This document shows positions 7,364 through 41,039 of a stretch of 41,039 bases of DNA, piece by piece. This DNA comes from a phage. Location of the stretch: the sequence record NC_093712.1; one strand, 5' to 3'. Positions within the stretch are counted from its first letter, which is position 1. The number at the start of each line of letters is the position of its first letter. A model generated the notes under the pieces. That model saw nothing but the letters and a program-made list of their open reading frames with translations, was not told the DNA's origin and ran no database searches. Both the position numbers and the translations under genes were made by a program.

Positions 7364-7390
7364 AAAAGGCCCCGAAAGGGGCCTTAGTTT
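7364..7390. terminator. bidirectional rho-independent terminator
   Basis: AGGCCCC-GAAA-GGGGCCT hairpin flanked by A-run upstream and T-rich downstream; lies between convergent kinase and major tail genes. Confidence 0.75.
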
Positions 7391-8556
7391 TATGCGTAGG
7401 TGATGCGCTGAATAACAATAGACGACTGGTACTGGTTACCAGTAGCCTGGCCTTCGATGGACTGAGTGATTGACTCAGGCCCGCCAATCTCAGGTGTAAC
7501 CGCGGTAAGTTCTGCACGTTTCAAGCTGAAAGACATAGCCCCGTTTACCCCCGCCAGAATAGAGTTAATCTCCACCTGCTGCTCGTTGATAAACTTCTGA
7601 ATCATCGCCATGTCGTACAGCTTACCGGAGATGGAGAAGGTGTTAGCTGCTCGGCTACGCTCCACAAACGCTACGTTAGTGTTGCCGAGTTCGAACTGTG
7701 CGGACGCGCTGTTGTCGTTGGTGATGGTCAGGCTGTCGCAACGCAACGGCGTAGAACCGTCGAACACAGAAACATCGACCGAGGAGAATGGCTCGTTACC
7801 AAACGTAACAGAGGAGAAATCAGAACCAGACGGCTGCGTGGTGAGAATCTCCTGACTGCGACCGATGAACGGGAAGCTGCCAGTTACCATAGCGTTAACA
7901 GCCTGTTCGATGGTAAAACCAGAAACTTCCACGCCTTTGGTTAGTGTGTACGCGTCAGTCCCGCCGCACTGGCCTTTGTACCAGGTGAGAATAGAGAACG
8001 TCTTGCACTGGCTTCCCGTTTCCAGTTTATCCCCTGTCTTAGCGGCGGTAGTTACTGTCTCTGTGGTCAGGGTATGCTGGATACCTGCCCCGGTCACTAC
8101 CAGCGCCTCTACTGCAGTTACGATAAACGGTTTTGCGTTGTCACCGGTTAAGTCGGTAAACGCAATCAGGTCGCCCACTTCAACGCCGTCAGAAATAAAG
8201 CTACCTTCGGCACGGGTAAAGGTCTTGCCTGCAGGCGCGACGGTAATTGATAGCCCGGTCAGAGAACTACCGGATCGCCATGTAGAGCCTAAAGCACCCG
8301 CCAGCCAGTCGTCCTGGCTTTTCGAGCTAAGCTCAATAGCGTATTCTCCGCTAACCTGCTTGTTACCGGTGCGGATTGACGTAGTTTCACGGCTGCCGTC
8401 CAGTTCGTTGGAGGTCAGCGTGTCGCGGGTAATGGCAGGAACGCCACCTGTGTTACGCAATGGCGACCAGACCGGGTTAGTCGGTGTTACGCCCGGGGTA
8501 GTTTCTGCCACATAGAATTGCGCAGTATTCGCGCCCTTAAAAGGAGTTGTAGCCAT
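7390..8556 (-). CDS. major tail protein
   Basis: 388 aa, Thr/Ser/Gly-rich beta-type composition, position between tail terminator-like genes and chaperones; RBS AAGAGG before ATG at 8556 (track start 8562 is GTG). Confidence 0.65.
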   Translation of the reverse strand: MATTPFKGANTAQFYVAETTPGVTPTNPVWSPLRNTGGVPAITRDTLTSNELDGSRETTSIRTGNKQVSGEYAIELSSKSQDDWLAGALGSTWRSGSSLTGLSITVAPAGKTFTRAEGSFISDGVEVGDLIAFTDLTGDNAKPFIVTAVEALVVTGAGIQHTLTTETVTTAAKTGDKLETGSQCKTFSILTWYKGQCGGTDAYTLTKGVEVSGFTIEQAVNAMVTGSFPFIGRSQEILTTQPSGSDFSSVTFGNEPFSSVDVSVFDGSTPLRCDSLTITNDNSASAQFELGNTNVAFVERSRAANTFSISGKLYDMAMIQKFINEQQVEINSILAGVNGAMSFSLKRAELTAVTPEIGGPESITQSIEGQATGNQYQSSIVIQRITYA

Positions 8557-9723: not shown

Positions 9724-10337
9724 CTGGCGGCCTCCAGTCTCGAAATAACCAGTAGCGCGGACGGTGCTGTGCCCCATGCGGTTACGGTAGCGACTTGTGG
9801 GTACACGCCGCCGAAGTTAGTTCCGGCGCTATCCCGCATAATCTGTATAGCCAGCGTCTGACCGGCAGCAGGGTTAACAACTACACGCGATTCGATCGGG
9901 ATTGTTACGTCGGCGCTTACCAGTTTAGTTGCCGCGGGAGAACCGTACTGAGCACCATTAAGAAGAATGCGCGATAACAGGATTGACGTTCCGCTAGCGC
10001 CCGTGCGCCCGGCCTGTAACTTGATGCGAACGGCATAGTTTCCGGGGGTGTTGAACGTAACCAGCCCCGCAGCATTAATCATTACCGGGTCGGATGCGCT
10101 ACCCTGAGCAGAGCCGAAAGTTAACTGCAACGCCGTGTCTACTGCGGTAGGCGCTTGGGCTACAGTAGACGCAGCACGGAGAACTTCAACTTCTTTAACG
10201 CCTGGAGTGGCGTAAATAGGAGAGTCCGCCATCTGTGTCATTACTTCGCGTAACTTCGCGGAGGTGATAAGCCCGGTGGTGTTGTCGGGATGATTCGCAC
10301 CGATAAGGGTGAACATCTCTGTTTTAGTTTTCACCAT
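9720..10337 (-). CDS. virion structural protein of head-tail connector region
   Basis: 205-aa ORF, Thr/Ala/Gly-rich, within structural operon. Confidence 0.4.
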   Translation of the reverse strand: MVKTKTEMFTLIGANHPDNTTGLITSAKLREVMTQMADSPIYATPGVKEVEVLRAASTVAQAPTAVDTALQLTFGSAQGSASDPVMINAAGLVTFNTPGNYAVRIKLQAGRTGASGTSILLSRILLNGAQYGSPAATKLVSADVTIPIESRVVVNPAAGQTLAIQIMRDSAGTNFGGVYPQVATVTAWGTAPSALLVISRLEAAR

Positions 10338-13362: not shown

Positions 13363-13522
13363 ACAAGCAATAGAGTATGGCCCTTCCGAACGCGTCAGCG
13401 TAACTACACTCAGGACTTACGTCCCGCTCCGTTACCTGCCCGCGCCGCGGTCGCTTGTTCATACTTCACAAGCTCAGGTGGAGCTTAGCACATTTTCAGT
13501 GAAAAGTCAACTATTCGAATAG
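13363..13522 (-). promoter_or_regulatory. conserved promoter plus structured leader element, copy 1 (TTGACT-17-TGnTAAGCT promoter at 13510..13482, then conserved hairpins)
   Basis: ~145 nt shared with 24338-24482 (blocks TATGGCCCTTCCGAAYGCGTCAGCG, CGGTCGCTTGTTCATACTTCACAAGCTCAGG, GAGCTTA, AAAAGTCAA); no conserved ORF; followed by hairpin GCGCCCCGC/GCGGGGC (13281-13305) before spanin RBS. Confidence 0.5.
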
Positions 13523-13572: not shown

Positions 13573-13606
13573 CTAAAAAGCCCCTTTCGGGGCTTAAGTT
13601 TATTCT
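13573..13606. terminator. rho-independent terminator (bidirectional)
   Basis: AAGCCCC-TTTC-GGGGCTT hairpin with flanking T/A runs; just past stop of gene 13600..14061. Confidence 0.7.
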
Positions 13607-18687: not shown

Positions 18688-18849
18688 GTCTCATTTGAAG
18701 AAACCATCCTTGACAAGCTGACGGTATAGTTTAGCTGCGTAACGCTCTGCCTGGCCTTTGCGCCGAAATATTTTCCCATTAACTGAATACTTATTTAACT
18801 CTGGCTCGTACCAAACTTGGTTGTCGATGAACTCCAGAATACTAATCAT
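18688..18849 (-). CDS. hypothetical small protein (53 aa)
   Basis: Manually found; strong RBS GAGGAG, ATGA coupling to upstream gene. Confidence 0.45.
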
Positions 18850-19082
18850 CCCCCACTCTCCTCTTTAGCAATACGTTGCTCAGTTTTAGTGATACCCCGG
18901 CGCGTGAATAACACCGGGCTTGTCTTAACGTGCGTCATCAGACGGTTGTTATAAATTACATGGCGCTCGCAGTTAACGTCTTTGCTGTACTTGGCAATCG
19001 TCATTTCGTTGATGCCGGTTTGTCGGCATGTCTCAGCCATCGCGCCGTATTCTTTAATCAGGTTTGGAATGCTGGTAATCAT
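18846..19082 (-). CDS. hypothetical small protein with possible HTH
   Basis: ATGA-coupled start at 19082 (track ORF extends to 19106); segment TCRQTGINEMTIAKY is HTH-like. Confidence 0.45.
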   Translation of the reverse strand: MITSIPNLIKEYGAMAETCRQTGINEMTIAKYSKDVNCERHVIYNNRLMTHVKTSPVLFTRRGITKTEQRIAKEESGG

Positions 19083-19255: not shown

Positions 19256-19443
19256 CCCACTATCTCATCACCGAGCCACGCCGTTTCTCGTATATCGTCG
19301 ACCACACAAGCGGCGTGCTCACGGCTAATTGCAAAAATGTAGAAGCTGAACTTCTTCCCGTCGGCGTCGATGTGGTTAACCGAGTATGGTTTCCACAGGA
19401 CGCCATCGATAACTACGGGTTCAGGCGCTTTCATACCCATCAC
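19252..19443 (-). CDS. hypothetical small protein (63 aa)
   Basis: ORF track; member of chain of translationally coupled early genes. Confidence 0.45.
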   Translation of the reverse strand: MMGMKAPEPVVIDGVLWKPYSVNHIDADGKKFSFYIFAISREHAACVVDDIRETAWLGDEIVG

Positions 19444-19618
19444 CCTGGGATTTGTTCAGGTTGAAGCGGTTAATCAGTTCACGGCGTGTCTCATAAAGCG
19501 ACTCCACCATTTGCTCGGCTACCGCGATTTTAGTATTCAGGACGCGCATCACGTGGCTGATGTCTACGCCGCCGTTAACGGCCTCTACCATCATCTTTTC
19601 GTATTCACGGTCGGTCAT
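19421..19618 (-). CDS. hypothetical small protein (65 aa)
   Basis: ATGA-coupled ATG at 19618. Confidence 0.45.
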   Translation of the reverse strand: MTDREYEKMMVEAVNGGVDISHVMRVLNTKIAVAEQMVESLYETRRELINRFNLNKSQGDGYESA

Positions 19619-19770
19619 TTTTTCTCTCCCCACATGCGATTGAGATACTTGTTCTTGTCCAGCCCCGGGAAACTGTTACGTTTCATCAGTTCCTCGCGTG
19701 ACGGGAACGGGACGTGACTTACTTTACGGCCTACTCGTAACGGCTGGCTTACTGGGCCTTGTTCGCTCAT
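19615..19770 (-). CDS. hypothetical small protein (51 aa)
   Basis: Manually found; RBS GGAGAG; ATGA coupling. Confidence 0.4.
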   Translation of the reverse strand: MSEQGPVSQPLRVGRKVSHVPFPSREELMKRNSFPGLDKNKYLNRMWGEKK

Positions 19771-20265: not shown

Positions 20266-20855
20266 TCATTTAACCGCCCTACCGATAGCCTCAGCCTCTT
20301 GCCACGGTTTACCGTCGAACAGCGCCAGACGCCCGGCTGTACGGCGACGCAGGCCAAGTAGTGGTTTGCCGTTCTGGTTGATGAACAGCGCCAGCTTGGC
20401 CCGCAGCGTCGCAGTATCACCGGAACGCAGTGCCTTACCCGTGCCGGTAGTAGCTGCAATCACACCGGCACCAGCGTTATACACCAGGTCGCACATTGCA
20501 CGAACCCCTTCATGAAGGTGGGGGACGGAACGCAGTGCCTACCCGTGCCGGTAGTAGCTGCAATCACACCGGCACCAGCGTTATACACCAGGTCGCACAC
20601 TGCATCGAACTGCGCCTGTGTCAATGAATGGTGTGCTGCCGCATCGACCGCGGCCACGGCCTTAGCCATATCGCGATTCAGTAACAGGAGGCCTTGTCCT
20701 GGGGTGATGGTCTTGCCTGGAGTCACGTCCGGCCCGTAGTGCCCGTACCCAATAGTCAGGTACTTCTCGTTCGGCGTAGCGCGATACGCAGTTCCGCGGA
20801 ATCCCTCGAACGCGGCACAGAAATGCAATCCATTATCTGAAATATTTCGAGACAT
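20266..20855 (-). pseudogene. endolysin (GH24 phage lysozyme) with reading frame interrupted by 105-bp imperfect tandem duplication
   Basis: N-part (20460..20855) has lysozyme motif FEGFRGTAYRATPNEKYLTIGYGHYG; C-part (20266..20496) continues in another frame; both fragments contain CDLVYNAGAGVIAATTGTG encoded by the duplicated DNA. Confidence 0.7.
20421..20599. repeat. imperfect tandem direct repeat (2 copies, period 105 bp) with palindrome CCTTCATGAAGG at junction
   Basis: 20421-20495 and 20526-20599 are identical except a 1-nt indel; similarity extends ~10 nt further; 12-bp perfect palindrome at 20507-20518 between copies. Confidence 0.8.
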
Positions 20856-21775: not shown

Positions 21776-21978
21776 TATTTCTCCTGTTTACCAAGTCGCT
21801 TAGGTGAGCAGATAGCGCGTACCTCCGAATCGTTGGGCTTGTCGCCCTGAAACAGGAAGTGCGCGTTCTCTGCGGCGCGTGCCGCTGACTGGCACGCCTC
21901 CATCGAGTAAAACGTTTCTGATGCCGCCAGATGCATCTGACCCGTGGACAGCACCCAGATAAATAAGATGCTGGTCAT
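21775..21978 (-). CDS. small protein with N-terminal hydrophobic segment
   Basis: ATG at 21978 overlaps upstream stop (TGATG); hydrophobic MTSILFIWVLSTG; a competing overlapping ORF 21800..22033 was judged less likely. Confidence 0.4.
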   Translation of the reverse strand: MTSILFIWVLSTGQMHLAASETFYSMEACQSAARAAENAHFLFQGDKPNDSEVRAICSPKRLGKQEK

Positions 21979-22523
21979 CAGAAGTATTCCCCGCACGTTT
22001 TACATACTTTCGTACCGAACGGCGCGGAGCCATCTGTTATTACATAATAGAAACTGTGTTTGCACTCCTGTGTACAGGCTGTAGCCCCATACTCAAGTCC
22101 GTCCCACTCACGCTTGCCGCATTCGCAGCAAAACCGGCTACCGGGCACGTTGTCCTTGCAGCCTTCGGCAATAAACAATCCTGGAGCGATAATCCAATTG
22201 TGGTCATATTCCTGCGTATCTTCTTTTCGGCAACCAGATTGCTCCGAACCGTACGCACCTTTGCGGATAAGTTTGTATGCCTCCACGTCACCAGTAGCCT
22301 TGACCAATGCCAGATGCAACTCCTTAACTTGCCCTGTCAGGTGCGATATGTGCTCAGATTTCTTAATGTTGTCTTCCCGCAACTCCTTAATCTGCGCCGA
22401 CGCATCACGTAACTGATTCTTAAGTGACTGCACCTCATGCGCCAGGTCTTCGCTCCGGCTGTTATTTACCTGCTGCCGTAGCTGGTCGATAAGGTACTCG
22501 AATATTTCGTTTTTAGTGTTCAT
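21978..22523 (-). CDS. coiled-coil protein with C-terminal Cys-rich (zinc-binding-like) domain
   Basis: 181 aa; N-terminal heptad-like region, C-terminal CxxC...CxxC clusters (FCCECGK, VCKTCGEYF). Confidence 0.55.
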   Translation of the reverse strand: MNTKNEIFEYLIDQLRQQVNNSRSEDLAHEVQSLKNQLRDASAQIKELREDNIKKSEHISHLTGQVKELHLALVKATGDVEAYKLIRKGAYGSEQSGCRKEDTQEYDHNWIIAPGLFIAEGCKDNVPGSRFCCECGKREWDGLEYGATACTQECKHSFYYVITDGSAPFGTKVCKTCGEYF

Positions 22524-24337: not shown

Positions 24338-24482
24338 TAATAGACTATGGCCCTTCCGAATGCGTCAGCGAGGCTCACTCCACACGTCGAGACGTGCTCG
24401 TTTCGCCTGCCGCGCACCGCGGTCGCTTGTTCATACTTCACAAGCTCAGGACGAGCTTACCATATTTCTCAGTAAAAGTCAA
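24338..24482 (-). promoter_or_regulatory. conserved promoter plus structured leader element, copy 2 (TTGACT-17-TGnTAAGCT at 24482..24454)
   Basis: Near-identical blocks to 13363-13522; hairpin CACGTC-GA-GACGTG (24373-24386) replaces GGAC-TTAC-GTCC of copy 1 at the same relative position; perfect TATAAT on plus strand at 24336-24341 is an alternative reading. Confidence 0.5.
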
Positions 24483-35676: not shown

Positions 35677-35680
35677 AGAA

Positions 35681-35710
35681 AAGGCCCCGTTTGGGGCCTT
35701 AGTTTTATTT
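35681..35710. terminator. bidirectional rho-independent terminator between convergent replication operon and tailspike gene
   Basis: AAGGCCCC-GTTT-GGGGCCTT with T-runs on both strands. Confidence 0.75.
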
Positions 35711-38671: not shown

Positions 38672-41038
38672 TTAATTAAAACCATTGCTGAATCCGTCGG
38701 AGAAACCGCTGCCGTATGGCGCGACGCCGTCGTATTTGTAGAATCCGTCGTCATAGTTGTAGCCCGTAATCTTGACCGTGCGGTCGTCGCCAGGGTCGAT
38801 TGATGAAACAACTATCTTCTGAGCATTATGCCTTGCTTCGTTGCCGAATGAAAACTCAGTTTTTAGTGCGCTATTCCCTGTGTAGATTGCTTCCTCTGGG
38901 GCAGAAAGCATAATCACTTCGCGGTCGTGGCTTCCTTTGATAACAGAGATACTCTGCACAGAGCCGTCGCGCTTCTTAAGAATGATGGAGTGGTCGTCCC
39001 CGGGAGTAAACGTAACAGGCTGTGACAGCGTCAGCGTAAGCCCGTTAACGGCAACAACATAACCATCTTGCGGGGCGATGCGGGAGCCTTTAACTACGCT
39101 GATTACACCGCCGGGTGTAGCGAGAGCGCCTTCTTCTGTAGCTTCGAACTCTACGACAACTTTACTTAACGCATTGCGCTGATAGCGACGCCGCGCCAGC
39201 CAGTACGCCTGCTGATAGTTACGCACGCCTTTCGATTCGTACTCCTCCGTGTTTGCGCCGAGTTCTTCCGGGATATAAATAGCTTCCTGTACGTTAGTAT
39301 CCGGGTCAATGTACGAGAACGACAGGCTATCGTAGGTCGTAGAATCATTAAACGTGCGGGTCCATTTCTCTGTACCAGTAGTTTTGCTGCGGTGAGTGAA
39401 CACCATCTCGGGCCCTGCAACCGGGCGGTCGAAGCGCAACATAATATCCGCGCCTTTACGGTACGCGGTACAGAACACGGCTTCGGCTATAGTCTGAACG
39501 ATGTCCTGCATCGTGGTGTCGTAATCGTCGAACGTGTAGCAGAACTGACCTGCTAATTCGCTGCCAAAATAGGACTCAATTTCTTCTTGCACGGCAAGCA
39601 ACTTATCCATGTTTGCCGTCGTCAGTTCCAGATTACCCACCACCGGGTCGCGAGCCAGTCTGATTAGCGACTGCACCGCTTGAGTGTTCGGTGTCATTAC
39701 GCTATCAAATACGCCGTTACCTAGATATTTGTAGCACATCTCGGTTGCAATCATGCGCAGTTCCGGGTTGTCTATACTGGCTGCACGCGGCGTCTGTTTA
39801 CGGGCGCAATGCACCGTTGTCCTATTGCCGTAGTGAGGGGTGGTGTCAAGTGATTGCCCGTACAGGTTGATGAATGTTATTTCGTCACTTACCGTTCCGC
39901 CGTAATCCTTATCGAAATTCGTTATACGGCGCATACGGGCGCGGAAGCGCGATGCTGTCGGTAACTGCCCGTAAATAGACGTACCGACGTAATCCGTGCT
40001 ATTACCAGTAATCGTAGCCCGTACCGTGTAAATGTCGCTCAACGGGTTACGCTGAGAGTCAATCATCTGGTACTGGAGTTCTACCGTTACGCTGGTGCGA
40101 TTATAGCCGCCGTCATATTTGTAGAGGCCGTTTTGCCCTGCAACGTTAGCAAGCACACGGTCAACTTCCCCGCGCACCATGTAATACCAGTCGGTCAGGG
40201 ATACGTCATAGGTGTTGTTCGGGCCGATAAACGTATCTGAACGCTCTGTTAGCGTGTACGTCTGCCCGCTAGTCAACGCGGCCCAGTTAGACGCCCCGTT
40301 TACGGCTAATCTTACTTCGAAGTCGTCAACGTATAAAACTTCAAACGAGCCGTTCAGGTTAGTGACATCAGCAACGTCAAAGTTGCTCAACACCGCGACA
40401 TCACCGACGCTAAGAAACTCAGAAAAAGCAGAGTCGCCGGACGGGTCATAAATGTAGCCGGTGTTTGAAATACGTTTGGCTGTGCCGTCGGCGCTTGGGT
40501 TAGCCCCGATGTCGTTTGGCGCTTTCAGTACAATACCGTCAACGTCGTCGTTGGAGTATGTCACATAGAGTTTCTGGTCAATGACGTCGCCGATTTGTAG
40601 TTGCGGCGATGCGGTGTTGTTCGGTGACGTGTACGGTGCATATACAGCAACAGAGGAACCGGTGATGTCGCTTATCAGGGTATCGCCTTCCGTGACGCCA
40701 TCAGACTCGATATGCAGATGCCCGCGCCCGGCATCATAGTACGAATACTCCAGCAAAGCACCCGTGGAGTTGAACGCCTTATACGTCTGCATCAGGTCGT
40801 TAGGGATTGTCTGCACAGTCCCGCAGATGTCATAAGAGCGCCCATAGGGGCGCGGCTTGTTGGAGCGGTCTGTGAGACTGTTATTAGGCGATGTTGTCCG
40901 GTTGTTAGTCGCTGTGTAGTTGGCGTTTGCGGACATGTTCAACCCAAACAACTTAGCGATTGGCTTAAGGATAAAACCAAACACCTTACTAACCGCACCG
41001 AGCGCCCCGCTACCCGCACCCTCAATAATGTGGTACAT
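38672..41038 (-). CDS. central tail fibre / host specificity protein, lambda gpJ-like (reading frame reaches window edge; N-terminus may lie outside)
   Basis: 788 aa in window; segment SRFRARMRRITNF resembles conserved FNIRMRRMT region of lambda J; directly upstream of tailspike. Confidence 0.6.
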   Translation of the reverse strand: MYHIIEGAGSGALGAVSKVFGFILKPIAKLFGLNMSANANYTATNNRTTSPNNSLTDRSNKPRPYGRSYDICGTVQTIPNDLMQTYKAFNSTGALLEYSYYDAGRGHLHIESDGVTEGDTLISDITGSSVAVYAPYTSPNNTASPQLQIGDVIDQKLYVTYSNDDVDGIVLKAPNDIGANPSADGTAKRISNTGYIYDPSGDSAFSEFLSVGDVAVLSNFDVADVTNLNGSFEVLYVDDFEVRLAVNGASNWAALTSGQTYTLTERSDTFIGPNNTYDVSLTDWYYMVRGEVDRVLANVAGQNGLYKYDGGYNRTSVTVELQYQMIDSQRNPLSDIYTVRATITGNSTDYVGTSIYGQLPTASRFRARMRRITNFDKDYGGTVSDEITFINLYGQSLDTTPHYGNRTTVHCARKQTPRAASIDNPELRMIATEMCYKYLGNGVFDSVMTPNTQAVQSLIRLARDPVVGNLELTTANMDKLLAVQEEIESYFGSELAGQFCYTFDDYDTTMQDIVQTIAEAVFCTAYRKGADIMLRFDRPVAGPEMVFTHRSKTTGTEKWTRTFNDSTTYDSLSFSYIDPDTNVQEAIYIPEELGANTEEYESKGVRNYQQAYWLARRRYQRNALSKVVVEFEATEEGALATPGGVISVVKGSRIAPQDGYVVAVNGLTLTLSQPVTFTPGDDHSIILKKRDGSVQSISVIKGSHDREVIMLSAPEEAIYTGNSALKTEFSFGNEARHNAQKIVVSSIDPGDDRTVKITGYNYDDGFYKYDGVAPYGSGFSDGFSNGFN

Positions 41039-41039
41039 A

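What the first reader, a model, noticed from the sequence alone, without database searches (positions are those of the whole stretch)
20266..20855. Endolysin gene interrupted by a 105-bp imperfect tandem duplication with a palindromic junction
Positions 20421-20495 and 20526-20599 are near-identical direct repeats (one 1-nt indel), separated by novel sequence containing the perfect 12-bp palindrome CCTTCATGAAGG (20507-20518). Both lysozyme fragments encode CDLVYNAGAGVIAATTGTG from the duplicated DNA, and the frame breaks between them. A phage without intact endolysin should lyse poorly, so this is either an assembly or sequencing artefact, a defective variant, or the footprint of an insertion or repair event.
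Basis: seen in the sequence. Interest (0 to 1): 0.65.

Follow-up and report, generated by a model that had tools for sequence, protein, structure and literature searches.

The report
Genome-finishing artefact splitting a phage endolysin
The "broken" endolysin gene is almost certainly not biology: the duplication sits where the two ends of the assembled contig were joined when the circular genome was closed, and records from the same study carry the same scar at their own midpoints.

Summary
Window 20421-20520 and 20526-20633 are tandem copies, and they split a GH24 lysozyme gene (minus strand) into ORFs of 131 and 76 aa. The interpretation as a gene interruption is not supported.

The window is the whole record of Escherichia phage L AB-2017 (KY295896, 41,039 bp), a K1-specific Kagunavirus. 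Its two ends are contiguous in relatives, and the duplication junction lies exactly at the record midpoint (20519.5).

The source paper (PMC5582158) says each SPAdes contig was circularised by joining its beginning and end with a short string of Ns, which were then replaced with re-mapped read bases.

Every difference between the copies lies within about 25 nt of the junction. The "novel" spacer is a deletion-degraded copy of the sequence that follows copy B.

Deleting 104 nt (20437-20540) restores a 161-aa lysozyme, 157/161 identical to that of sibling phage G. None of 159 related phage records or 20 metagenome contigs has the duplication.

Four other records from the same study (P, G, F, B) carry a similar tandem duplication of about 70-100 nt at or near their own midpoints, in unrelated genes or regions.

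Verdict: finishing artefact, low biological interest, useful as a database correction.

The parts
20266..20855 (-). GH24 phage lysozyme (endolysin) gene as deposited, 590 nt, split in two. The single-copy version is 486 nt and encodes 161 aa.
   Evidence: PF00959: 94.5 bits for the reconstruction; 76.3 and 24.3 bits for the two fragments.
20460..20855 (-). ORF of 131 aa (deposited as AQN31860.1 'lysozyme'). About the first 105 residues are genuine (tblastn match to residues 1-106 of the phage G lysozyme), followed by about 26 out-of-frame residues (RHCVPSPTFMKGFVQCATWCITLVPV).
20266..20496 (-). ORF of 76 aa (deposited as AQN31859.1 'putative endolysin'). It is the C-terminal part of the lysozyme. 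Its ATG exists only because of the C-to-T discrepancy at 20496 in copy A (GTG Val codon in copy B, ATG here).
20421..20520 (.). Copy A, inferred to be the 3' end of the original contig. 20421-20495 matches copy B apart from the 1-nt deletion that B carries after 20540. 20496-20520 is degraded: 1 substitution and 9 deleted bases relative to the sequence at and after copy B.
20521..20525 (.). GGGGA, 5 nt with no counterpart anywhere nearby. Inferred to be residue of the N spacer filled from mis-mapped reads.
20526..20633 (.). Copy B, inferred to be the 5' end of the original contig. It carries a 1-nt deletion after 20540 (CCT-ACCC where copy A and relatives have CCTTACCC / CCTTGCC), and this deletion breaks the frame.
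20437..20540 (.). The 104 nt whose removal restores one continuous 161-aa ORF. That ORF is 157/161 identical to the phage G AB-2017 lysozyme, and the reconstructed region aligns without gaps to independent contigs.
20507..20518 (.). 12-nt palindrome CCTTCATGAAGG. It is a chance product of the degraded copy (true sequence CCTGTGTCAATGAATGG with bases dropped).
41039..41039 (.). Record end. 41039 to 1 is contiguous in relatives, inside the tail-protein gene, but one base (G) is missing exactly at the wrap. This marks the arbitrary cut antipodal to the join.

Best explanation
The duplication is a genome-finishing artefact in GenBank record KY295896 (Escherichia phage L AB-2017), not a feature of the phage. 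Shown: the record is a circularly closed genome cut at an arbitrary point in a tail gene, and the duplication junction is at its exact midpoint. Shown: the authors' stated procedure was to join the beginning and end of the single SPAdes contig with a short string of Ns, re-map the reads (Stampy, Samtools, BCFtools) and replace the Ns with read bases. Inferred: the contig of this circularly permuted, headful-packaging genome already overlapped itself at its ends. It is established that de Bruijn assemblers such as SPAdes leave a k-mer-long terminal repeat on circular molecules. The overlap was not trimmed, the ends were placed in the middle of the sequence for re-mapping, and the spacer, which corresponds to no real DNA, was filled with mis-aligned read bases. 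The result is copy A (old contig end), a degraded filler, and copy B (old contig start), with consensus errors confined to about 25 nt either side of the join. Because the old contig ends happened to lie inside the endolysin gene, the gene appears duplicated and frameshifted. The real phage most likely carries a single intact 161-aa GH24 lysozyme.
For: (1) Identity of the record: the two split ORFs are exactly AQN31860.1 and AQN31859.1 of phage L AB-2017, on a 41,039-bp contig. Table S1 gives accession KY295896.
(2) Window end to start is contiguous in 80 relatives; the best match is 99.4% over 1,200 nt in one piece.
(3) The junction (20520|20521) coincides with the record midpoint of 20519.5, or 20520 if the missing wrap base is counted. 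The chance that the midpoint falls in the 20-nt spacer is about 5e-4.
(4) The Methods text describes the N-join and fill.
(5) Records from the same pipeline carry the same scar at or near their own midpoints, at unrelated loci:
- P AB-2017: 41,184 bp, midpoint 20592, copies 20517-20593 and 20597-20674, splitting the spanin gene into P_24 and P_25.
- G AB-2017: midpoint 20759.5, copies 20617-20713 and 20723-20818, period 105-106. This makes the portal 532 aa against 497 aa in L and P.
- F: midpoint 19650, copies 19565-19664 and 19666-19765.
- B: midpoint 22009, copies 21929-21998 and 22016-22085.

In L, P and G, copy B has a 1-nt deletion 2-15 nt from its start, and copy A has mismatches or deletions at its end.
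(6) At each A/B difference, the copy nearer the junction carries the state that disagrees with relatives.
(7) The filler is a deletion-only degraded copy of the true downstream sequence.
(8) Removing 104 nt gives a 161-aa lysozyme, 157/161 identical to phage G's. The reconstructed region aligns without gaps to K1G and to metagenome contigs. That exact 161-aa sequence exists in an independent Logan assembly.
(9) No duplication occurs in 159 phage records or in 20 metagenome, Logan or NCBI contigs with the same lysis cassette, all of which have a 161-167 aa lysozyme.
(10) Every other gene compared is intact in one frame, apart from the tail gene that is cut by the record ends.
Against: No reads could be examined here, so absence of the duplication in the phage DNA is inferred and not observed. 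The paper reports that phage L has the longest latent period (35 min) and the smallest burst (3 PFU per cell) of the three siphoviruses, which is what one might expect of a lysis-impaired phage. The exact bookkeeping could not be reconstructed: the periods are 105, 105-106, 101, 87 and 79-80 nt in the five records, and a simple ungapped mosaic of left- and right-anchored reads does not reproduce the filler. In G the junction is 40 nt from the current record midpoint. That offset is largely explained by trimming of G's record ends. About 106 nt of the endosialidase gene are missing at its wrap. Its length also dropped by 105 nt from the published 41,624 bp to the current 41,519 bp.
Confidence: 0.95

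Rival explanations
1. The tandem duplication is real in the sequenced phage L stock: a slippage or illegitimate-recombination event that later acquired point changes. This would leave a split or defective endolysin and explain the slow, poor lysis.
For: Phage L has a 35-min latent period and a burst size of 3, against 10 min and bursts of 24 and 315 for G and P. A GAAGGGG motif lies 8 nt upstream of the ATG of the 76-aa ORF, so the C-terminal fragment could in principle be translated (my reading of the sequence).
Against: The junction is at the exact record midpoint (p about 5e-4), and four other records from the same study have analogous duplications at or near their own midpoints in unrelated genes or regions. 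Phage P's spanin is 'broken' in the same way, yet P has the largest burst. All copy differences cluster at the junction, and a fresh duplication would have identical copies. The phages in the study were grown to 1e10-1e11 PFU/mL, which is hard to reconcile with no endolysin. No relative carries the duplication.
Confidence: 0.03
2. It is an artefact of a different origin: an internal SPAdes misassembly or read-level sequencing error inside the contig, unrelated to the circularisation step.
For: The degraded filler and the 1-nt indels look like consensus or sequencing errors.
Against: It would not explain why the scar is at the midpoint of a record whose ends are contiguous, or why four other records from the same study have it at or near their midpoints. 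Coverage was about 244x MiSeq, and the other genes compared are clean.
Confidence: 0.02
3. It is the footprint of a mobile element, intron, intein or repair event inserted in the endolysin.
For: A 12-bp palindrome lies at the junction, and a small insertion with its own ORF occurs at the 5' end of the endolysin in phages Bas73 and Bas74.
Against: All but 5 nt of the extra 104 nt are a copy of adjacent gene sequence, so there is no foreign cargo. There is no Rfam match and no stable fold. Palindromes of this size occur at chance frequency. The Bas73/74 insert is at a different site and has an unrelated sequence.
Confidence: 0.005

Closest known systems
Untrimmed terminal overlap of a circular contig from a de Bruijn-graph assembler (e.g. 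the SPAdes k-mer-length end repeat), carried into a 'circularised' record
   Same: A direct repeat of about 77-100 nt made of the contig's own two ends. It is absent from the real molecule and disappears when one copy is trimmed.
   Different: Here the ends were joined through an N spacer that was then filled from reads, and the join was placed in the middle of the record. The repeat is therefore internal and imperfect next to the junction, and it splits a gene instead of sitting at the record termini.
Intact Kagunavirus (K1G-like, Guernseyvirinae) endolysin, GH24 / Pfam PF00959 (e.g. phage G AB-2017 G_35, K1G, fEg-Eco19 lysin)
   Same: After removal of 104 nt the gene encodes 161 aa, 157/161 identical to G_35. 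It has the same position after the class II and class I holins and the same overlap with the holin stop.
   Different: As deposited it is annotated as two CDS of 131 and 76 aa.
Genuine tandem duplications in phage genes from replication slippage or illegitimate recombination
   Same: Head-to-tail arrangement and a frame break.
   Different: Genuine events have no reason to lie at the record midpoint, to recur at the midpoint of sibling records in other genes, or to show errors only beside the junction.

Membership tests
Assembly-join (circularisation) artefact | The record is a closed circle opened at an arbitrary point, so its two ends are contiguous in relatives. | tested here: met
   end plus start aligns in one piece to 80 relatives, inside the tail-protein gene, with 1 base missing at the wrap.
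Assembly-join (circularisation) artefact | The duplication lies where the contig ends were joined. | tested here: met
   The junction at 20520|21 matches the midpoint at 20519.5-20520. The Methods describe joining the ends with Ns. That the join was placed at the midpoint is inferred from L, P, B, F and G.
Assembly-join (circularisation) artefact | Discrepancies between the copies are confined to the junction, and the junction-proximal copy is the aberrant one. | tested here: met
Assembly-join (circularisation) artefact | The same scar appears in other genomes processed by the same pipeline, at unrelated loci. | tested here: met
   P (spanin), G (portal), F (helicase-polymerase intergenic region) and B (region with no annotated CDS). 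R shows none in its revised record, and K is ambiguous.
Assembly-join (circularisation) artefact | Raw reads do not support the junction. | not testable with these tools
   Reads are at ENA under sample ERS1810221; there is no read access here.
GH24 phage lysozyme (Pfam PF00959) | Pfam match above the gathering score. | tested here: met
   94.5 bits (cut-off 22.3) for the reconstruction; the fragments score 76.3 and 24.3 bits.
GH24 phage lysozyme (Pfam PF00959) | A single continuous ORF of about 160 aa, as in all relatives. | tested here: not met
   Not met in the sequence as deposited. Met after deleting 20437-20540.
Genuine pseudogene or tandem duplication | The structure is present in the phage DNA (reads or PCR). 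| not testable with these tools
   See the decisive next steps.
Mobile element, intron or intein insertion | Inserted DNA carries foreign sequence (an ORF, ribozyme or terminal repeats). | tested here: not met
   The insert is a copy of flanking gene sequence plus 5 nt. There is no Rfam match.

The most novel reading that the evidence does not exclude
The duplication is real in the historic Smith-and-Huggins phage L stock. The phage would then make its lysozyme as two overlapping fragments, or none at all. That would explain its 35-min latent period and burst of 3, and it would mean a siphovirus can still form plaques with a split or absent endolysin.
Probability: 0.03. Interest if true: 0.4.

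Novelty: not a real feature. Interest (0 to 1): 0.05.

Why it matters
It matters for database hygiene, not for biology. KY295896 has been taken into RefSeq, and its two bogus endolysin fragments are there as YP_011217222.1 and YP_011217223.1, as well as in UniRef.

The same finishing error affects other records from the study:
- G: the portal protein gains 35 aa, and about 106 nt of the endosialidase gene are lost at the record wrap.
- P: the spanin gene is split.
- F and B: tandem duplications sit at or near the record midpoints.

Anyone mining these genomes for lysis genes, pseudogenes or duplications would be misled. It would also be tempting, and wrong, to link the split endolysin to phage L's poor burst.

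A general lesson for genome scans: a tandem duplication at L/2 of a record whose ends are contiguous is a signature of 'join and rotate' finishing.

Tried and rejected
- Exact-pattern scans of IMG/VR for the junction, for the wrap-around join and for a lineage-specific 38-mer of the endolysin all found nothing, so no independent copy of this phage turned up there.
- No match in complete E. coli genomes, so this is not a prophage allele.
- Look-ups of contigs encoding the 131-aa ORF, the 76-aa ORF and the 90-aa holin returned nothing.
I therefore could not tell whether it comes from phage L's own reads.
- Look-ups through conserved neighbours returned only other Kagunaviruses at 85-95% identity. 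These were useful as controls but are not phage L's reads.
- I tested whether the 20-28 nt filler is a position-by-position mosaic of reads anchored on the left and on the right of an N run. It is not. The deletion-only subsequence model fits much better.
- I tried to back-calculate one fixed SPAdes k and N-run length from the periods in the five records. No single value fits, although 77 or 99 plus 2-10 Ns is compatible. I leave this open.
- Rfam and DNA folding of the junction gave nothing.
- The apparent 'third piece' in hits to M01/AMO_3701M and to Bas73/74 comes from unrelated indels or insertions, not from the same duplication.

Full report
**Observation**

A segment beginning CGGAACGCAGTGCCT occurs at 20421 and again at 20526. 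The copies are identical for about 75 nt, except that copy B lacks one T (CCT-ACCC against CCTTACCC).

On the minus strand there are two ORFs, 20855-20460 (131 aa) and 20496-20266 (76 aa). Both contain CDLVYNAGAGVIAATTGTG, and both hit Pfam PF00959 Phage_lysozyme.

This is the only tandem repeat of 30 nt or more in the window. The palindrome CCTTCATGAAGG (20507-20518) exists but is unremarkable. There are 7 perfect 12-nt palindromes in the window against about 10 expected, and the junction has no unusual fold.

**What the window is**

The region matches 159 phage records, all K1G-like siphoviruses or their Salmonella relatives (Kagunavirus / Guernseyvirinae). In every one of them, the 801-nt query that spans the duplication corresponds to about 697 nt.

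The two split ORFs are exactly AQN31860.1 and AQN31859.1 of Escherichia phage L AB-2017, on a contig of 41,039 bp, which is the window length. The accession is KY295896 and the reads are under ENA sample ERS1810221. The window is therefore a complete deposited genome.

**The record is a closed circle, and the scar is at its midpoint**

The last 600 nt joined to the first 600 nt align in one piece to 80 relatives, at up to 99.4% identity. The joined sequence lies inside the tail-protein gene. Exactly one base (G) is missing at the wrap.

The record was therefore opened at an arbitrary point. The duplication junction (copy A ends at 20520, copy B starts at 20526) lies at the midpoint, L/2 = 19.5 past 20500, that is 20519.5. 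The chance that the midpoint falls in the 20-nt spacer is about 5e-4.

**Anatomy of the junction**

The sequence 20496-20520 corresponds to the sequence at and after the end of copy B, with one substitution and nine deleted bases. The 15 'novel' bases CCCTTCATGAAGGTG are an ordered subsequence of GCGCCTGTGTCAATGAATGGTG (p about 3e-5 to 3e-4). Only GGGGA (20521-20525) is unaccounted for.

All differences between the copies lie within about 25 nt of the junction. At each one, the copy nearer the junction disagrees with relatives, while the other copy agrees.

The ATG that opens the 76-aa ORF is itself one of these discrepancies. It reads GTG (Val) in copy B and in the relatives aligned.

**Restoring the gene**

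Deleting 20437-20540 (104 nt) gives one 161-aa ORF, 157/161 identical to the lysozyme of sibling phage G AB-2017. The reconstructed region aligns without a single gap over 700 nt to K1G and to several metagenome contigs.

That exact 161-aa sequence is present in an independent Logan assembly. All 20 independent contigs retrieved through neighbouring genes encode one lysozyme of 161-167 aa.

Every other gene compared with phage G is intact in one frame, apart from the tail gene that is cut by the record ends.

**How the artefact arose**

The describing paper is Baig et al. 2017, Front Microbiol 8:1652 (PMC5582158). It states that MiSeq 2x250 reads were assembled with SPAdes 3.6.2 into a single contig. 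[quoted passage not shown]

For a circularly permuted genome nothing is missing between the contig ends. From general knowledge of de Bruijn assemblers, those ends also overlap by a k-mer. Joining them without trimming, and then filling a spacer that has no real counterpart, must create a tandem duplication with a noisy junction.

That the join was placed in the middle of the sequence is my inference from the data.

**The decisive control: other records from the same study**

| Record | Length / midpoint | Copies | Effect |
|---|---|---|---|
| P AB-2017 (KY295898) | 41,184 bp / 20592 | 20517-20593 and 20597-20674 | Splits the spanin gene into P_24 and P_25 |
| G AB-2017 (KY295895) | 41,519 bp / 20759.5 | 20617-20713 and 20723-20818, period 105-106 | In frame; portal is 532 aa against 497 aa in L and P |
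| F (KY295894) | 39,300 bp / 19650 | 19565-19664 and 19666-19765 | Lies between the helicase and polymerase genes |
| B (KY295891) | 44,018 bp / 22009 | 21929-21998 and 22016-22085 | Lies in a stretch with no annotated CDS |

In L, P and G, copy B has a 1-nt deletion 2-15 nt from its start, and copy A has mismatches or deletions at its end.

G's junction is 40 nt off its present midpoint, but the record has been changed. It is 105 nt shorter than the size published (41,624 against 41,519 bp), and about 106 nt of the endosialidase gene are missing at its wrap.

Five independent genomes with their only sizeable tandem duplication at or near L/2, each at a different locus, cannot be biology.

**The phenotype caveat**

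Table 1 of the paper gives phage L the longest latent period (35 min) and the smallest burst (3), which superficially fits a lysis defect.

I give this little weight. Phage P's spanin is 'broken' by the same artefact, yet P has the largest burst (315). L differs from G and P by about 5-6% genome-wide. The phages in the study were grown to 1e10-1e11 PFU/mL.

Only reads or PCR can close this point.

**Verdict**

The interpretation as a real gene interruption is not supported.

The feature is a circularisation or finishing scar. The underlying gene is an ordinary Kagunavirus GH24 endolysin downstream of two holins. Biological interest is low. The practical value is in correcting KY295896 (already taken into RefSeq) and the other affected records from the study.

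Noticed in passing
window 41039|1 (record wrap), tail-protein gene at about 38675-41039 plus 1-115: One base (G) is missing exactly at the record ends relative to fEg-Eco19 and phage G. The tail-protein gene is cut by the record boundary and would be frameshifted if the record were circularised.
   Followed up: yes
L005 (KY295895, phage G AB-2017) 20617-20818, and the record ends: A 105-nt in-frame tandem duplication in the portal gene G_25 (532 aa against 497 aa in L and P). About 106 nt of the endosialidase gene are missing at the record wrap, which matches the 105-nt difference between the published size (41,624) and the record (41,519).
   Followed up: yes
L007 (KY295898, phage P AB-2017) 20517-20674: A tandem duplication with a 79-80-nt period at the record midpoint (20592). 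It splits the spanin gene into two annotated 'putative spanin' CDS (P_24, P_25).
   Followed up: yes
L020 (KY295894, phage F) record 19565-19765; L021 (KY295891, phage B) record 21929-22085; L019 (KY295897, phage K) record 18827-18887 and 19263-19323: F and B have tandem duplications of 100 nt and 70 nt at or near their record midpoints. In K, a 61-nt repeat has its first copy ending exactly at the midpoint, with the second copy 436 nt later; this may reflect the terminal-repeat region. R shows none in its revised record.
   Followed up: partly
window 13369-13510 and 24339-24482: A dispersed repeat of about 140 nt (84-94% identical) in two regions where none of phage G's proteins aligned, about 11 kb apart. 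It may be a shared promoter or regulatory module. It was not examined.
   Followed up: no
window 7364-7393, 13575-13604, 35679-35708: A recurrent GC-rich hairpin followed by a T-run (AAAAGGCCCCGAAAGGGGCCTTAGTTTTAT), resembling an intrinsic terminator.
   Followed up: no
L002 / L004 (phages Bas73, Bas74), locus 1967-2071: A 110-nt insertion lies between the holin and the endolysin. The original endolysin start (MSRNISDNGL...) now opens a separate 34-aa ORF, and the endolysin has a new N-terminus. This differs from the window's duplication and may be a genuine small-gene insertion.
   Followed up: partly
L001 (OR061069, phage M01) locus 1173-1715: The lysin is annotated as two CDS (128 aa and 38 aa) because of single-base insertions relative to relatives. 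The record also has an insert of about 90 nt just downstream of the lysin. This is probably record-quality error.
   Followed up: partly
window 9768-10278: Relative to phage G's single gene G_16, the window has about 510 nt extra, arranged as two genes. The paper's Table S3 shows the same arrangement in phage P (P_18 and P_19). This is ordinary gene-content variation.
   Followed up: partly
paper PMC5582158, Table 1: Phage L has a 35-min latent period and a burst of 3 PFU per cell, the poorest of the three siphoviruses. This coincides with the apparent endolysin break but is probably unrelated to it.
   Followed up: partly
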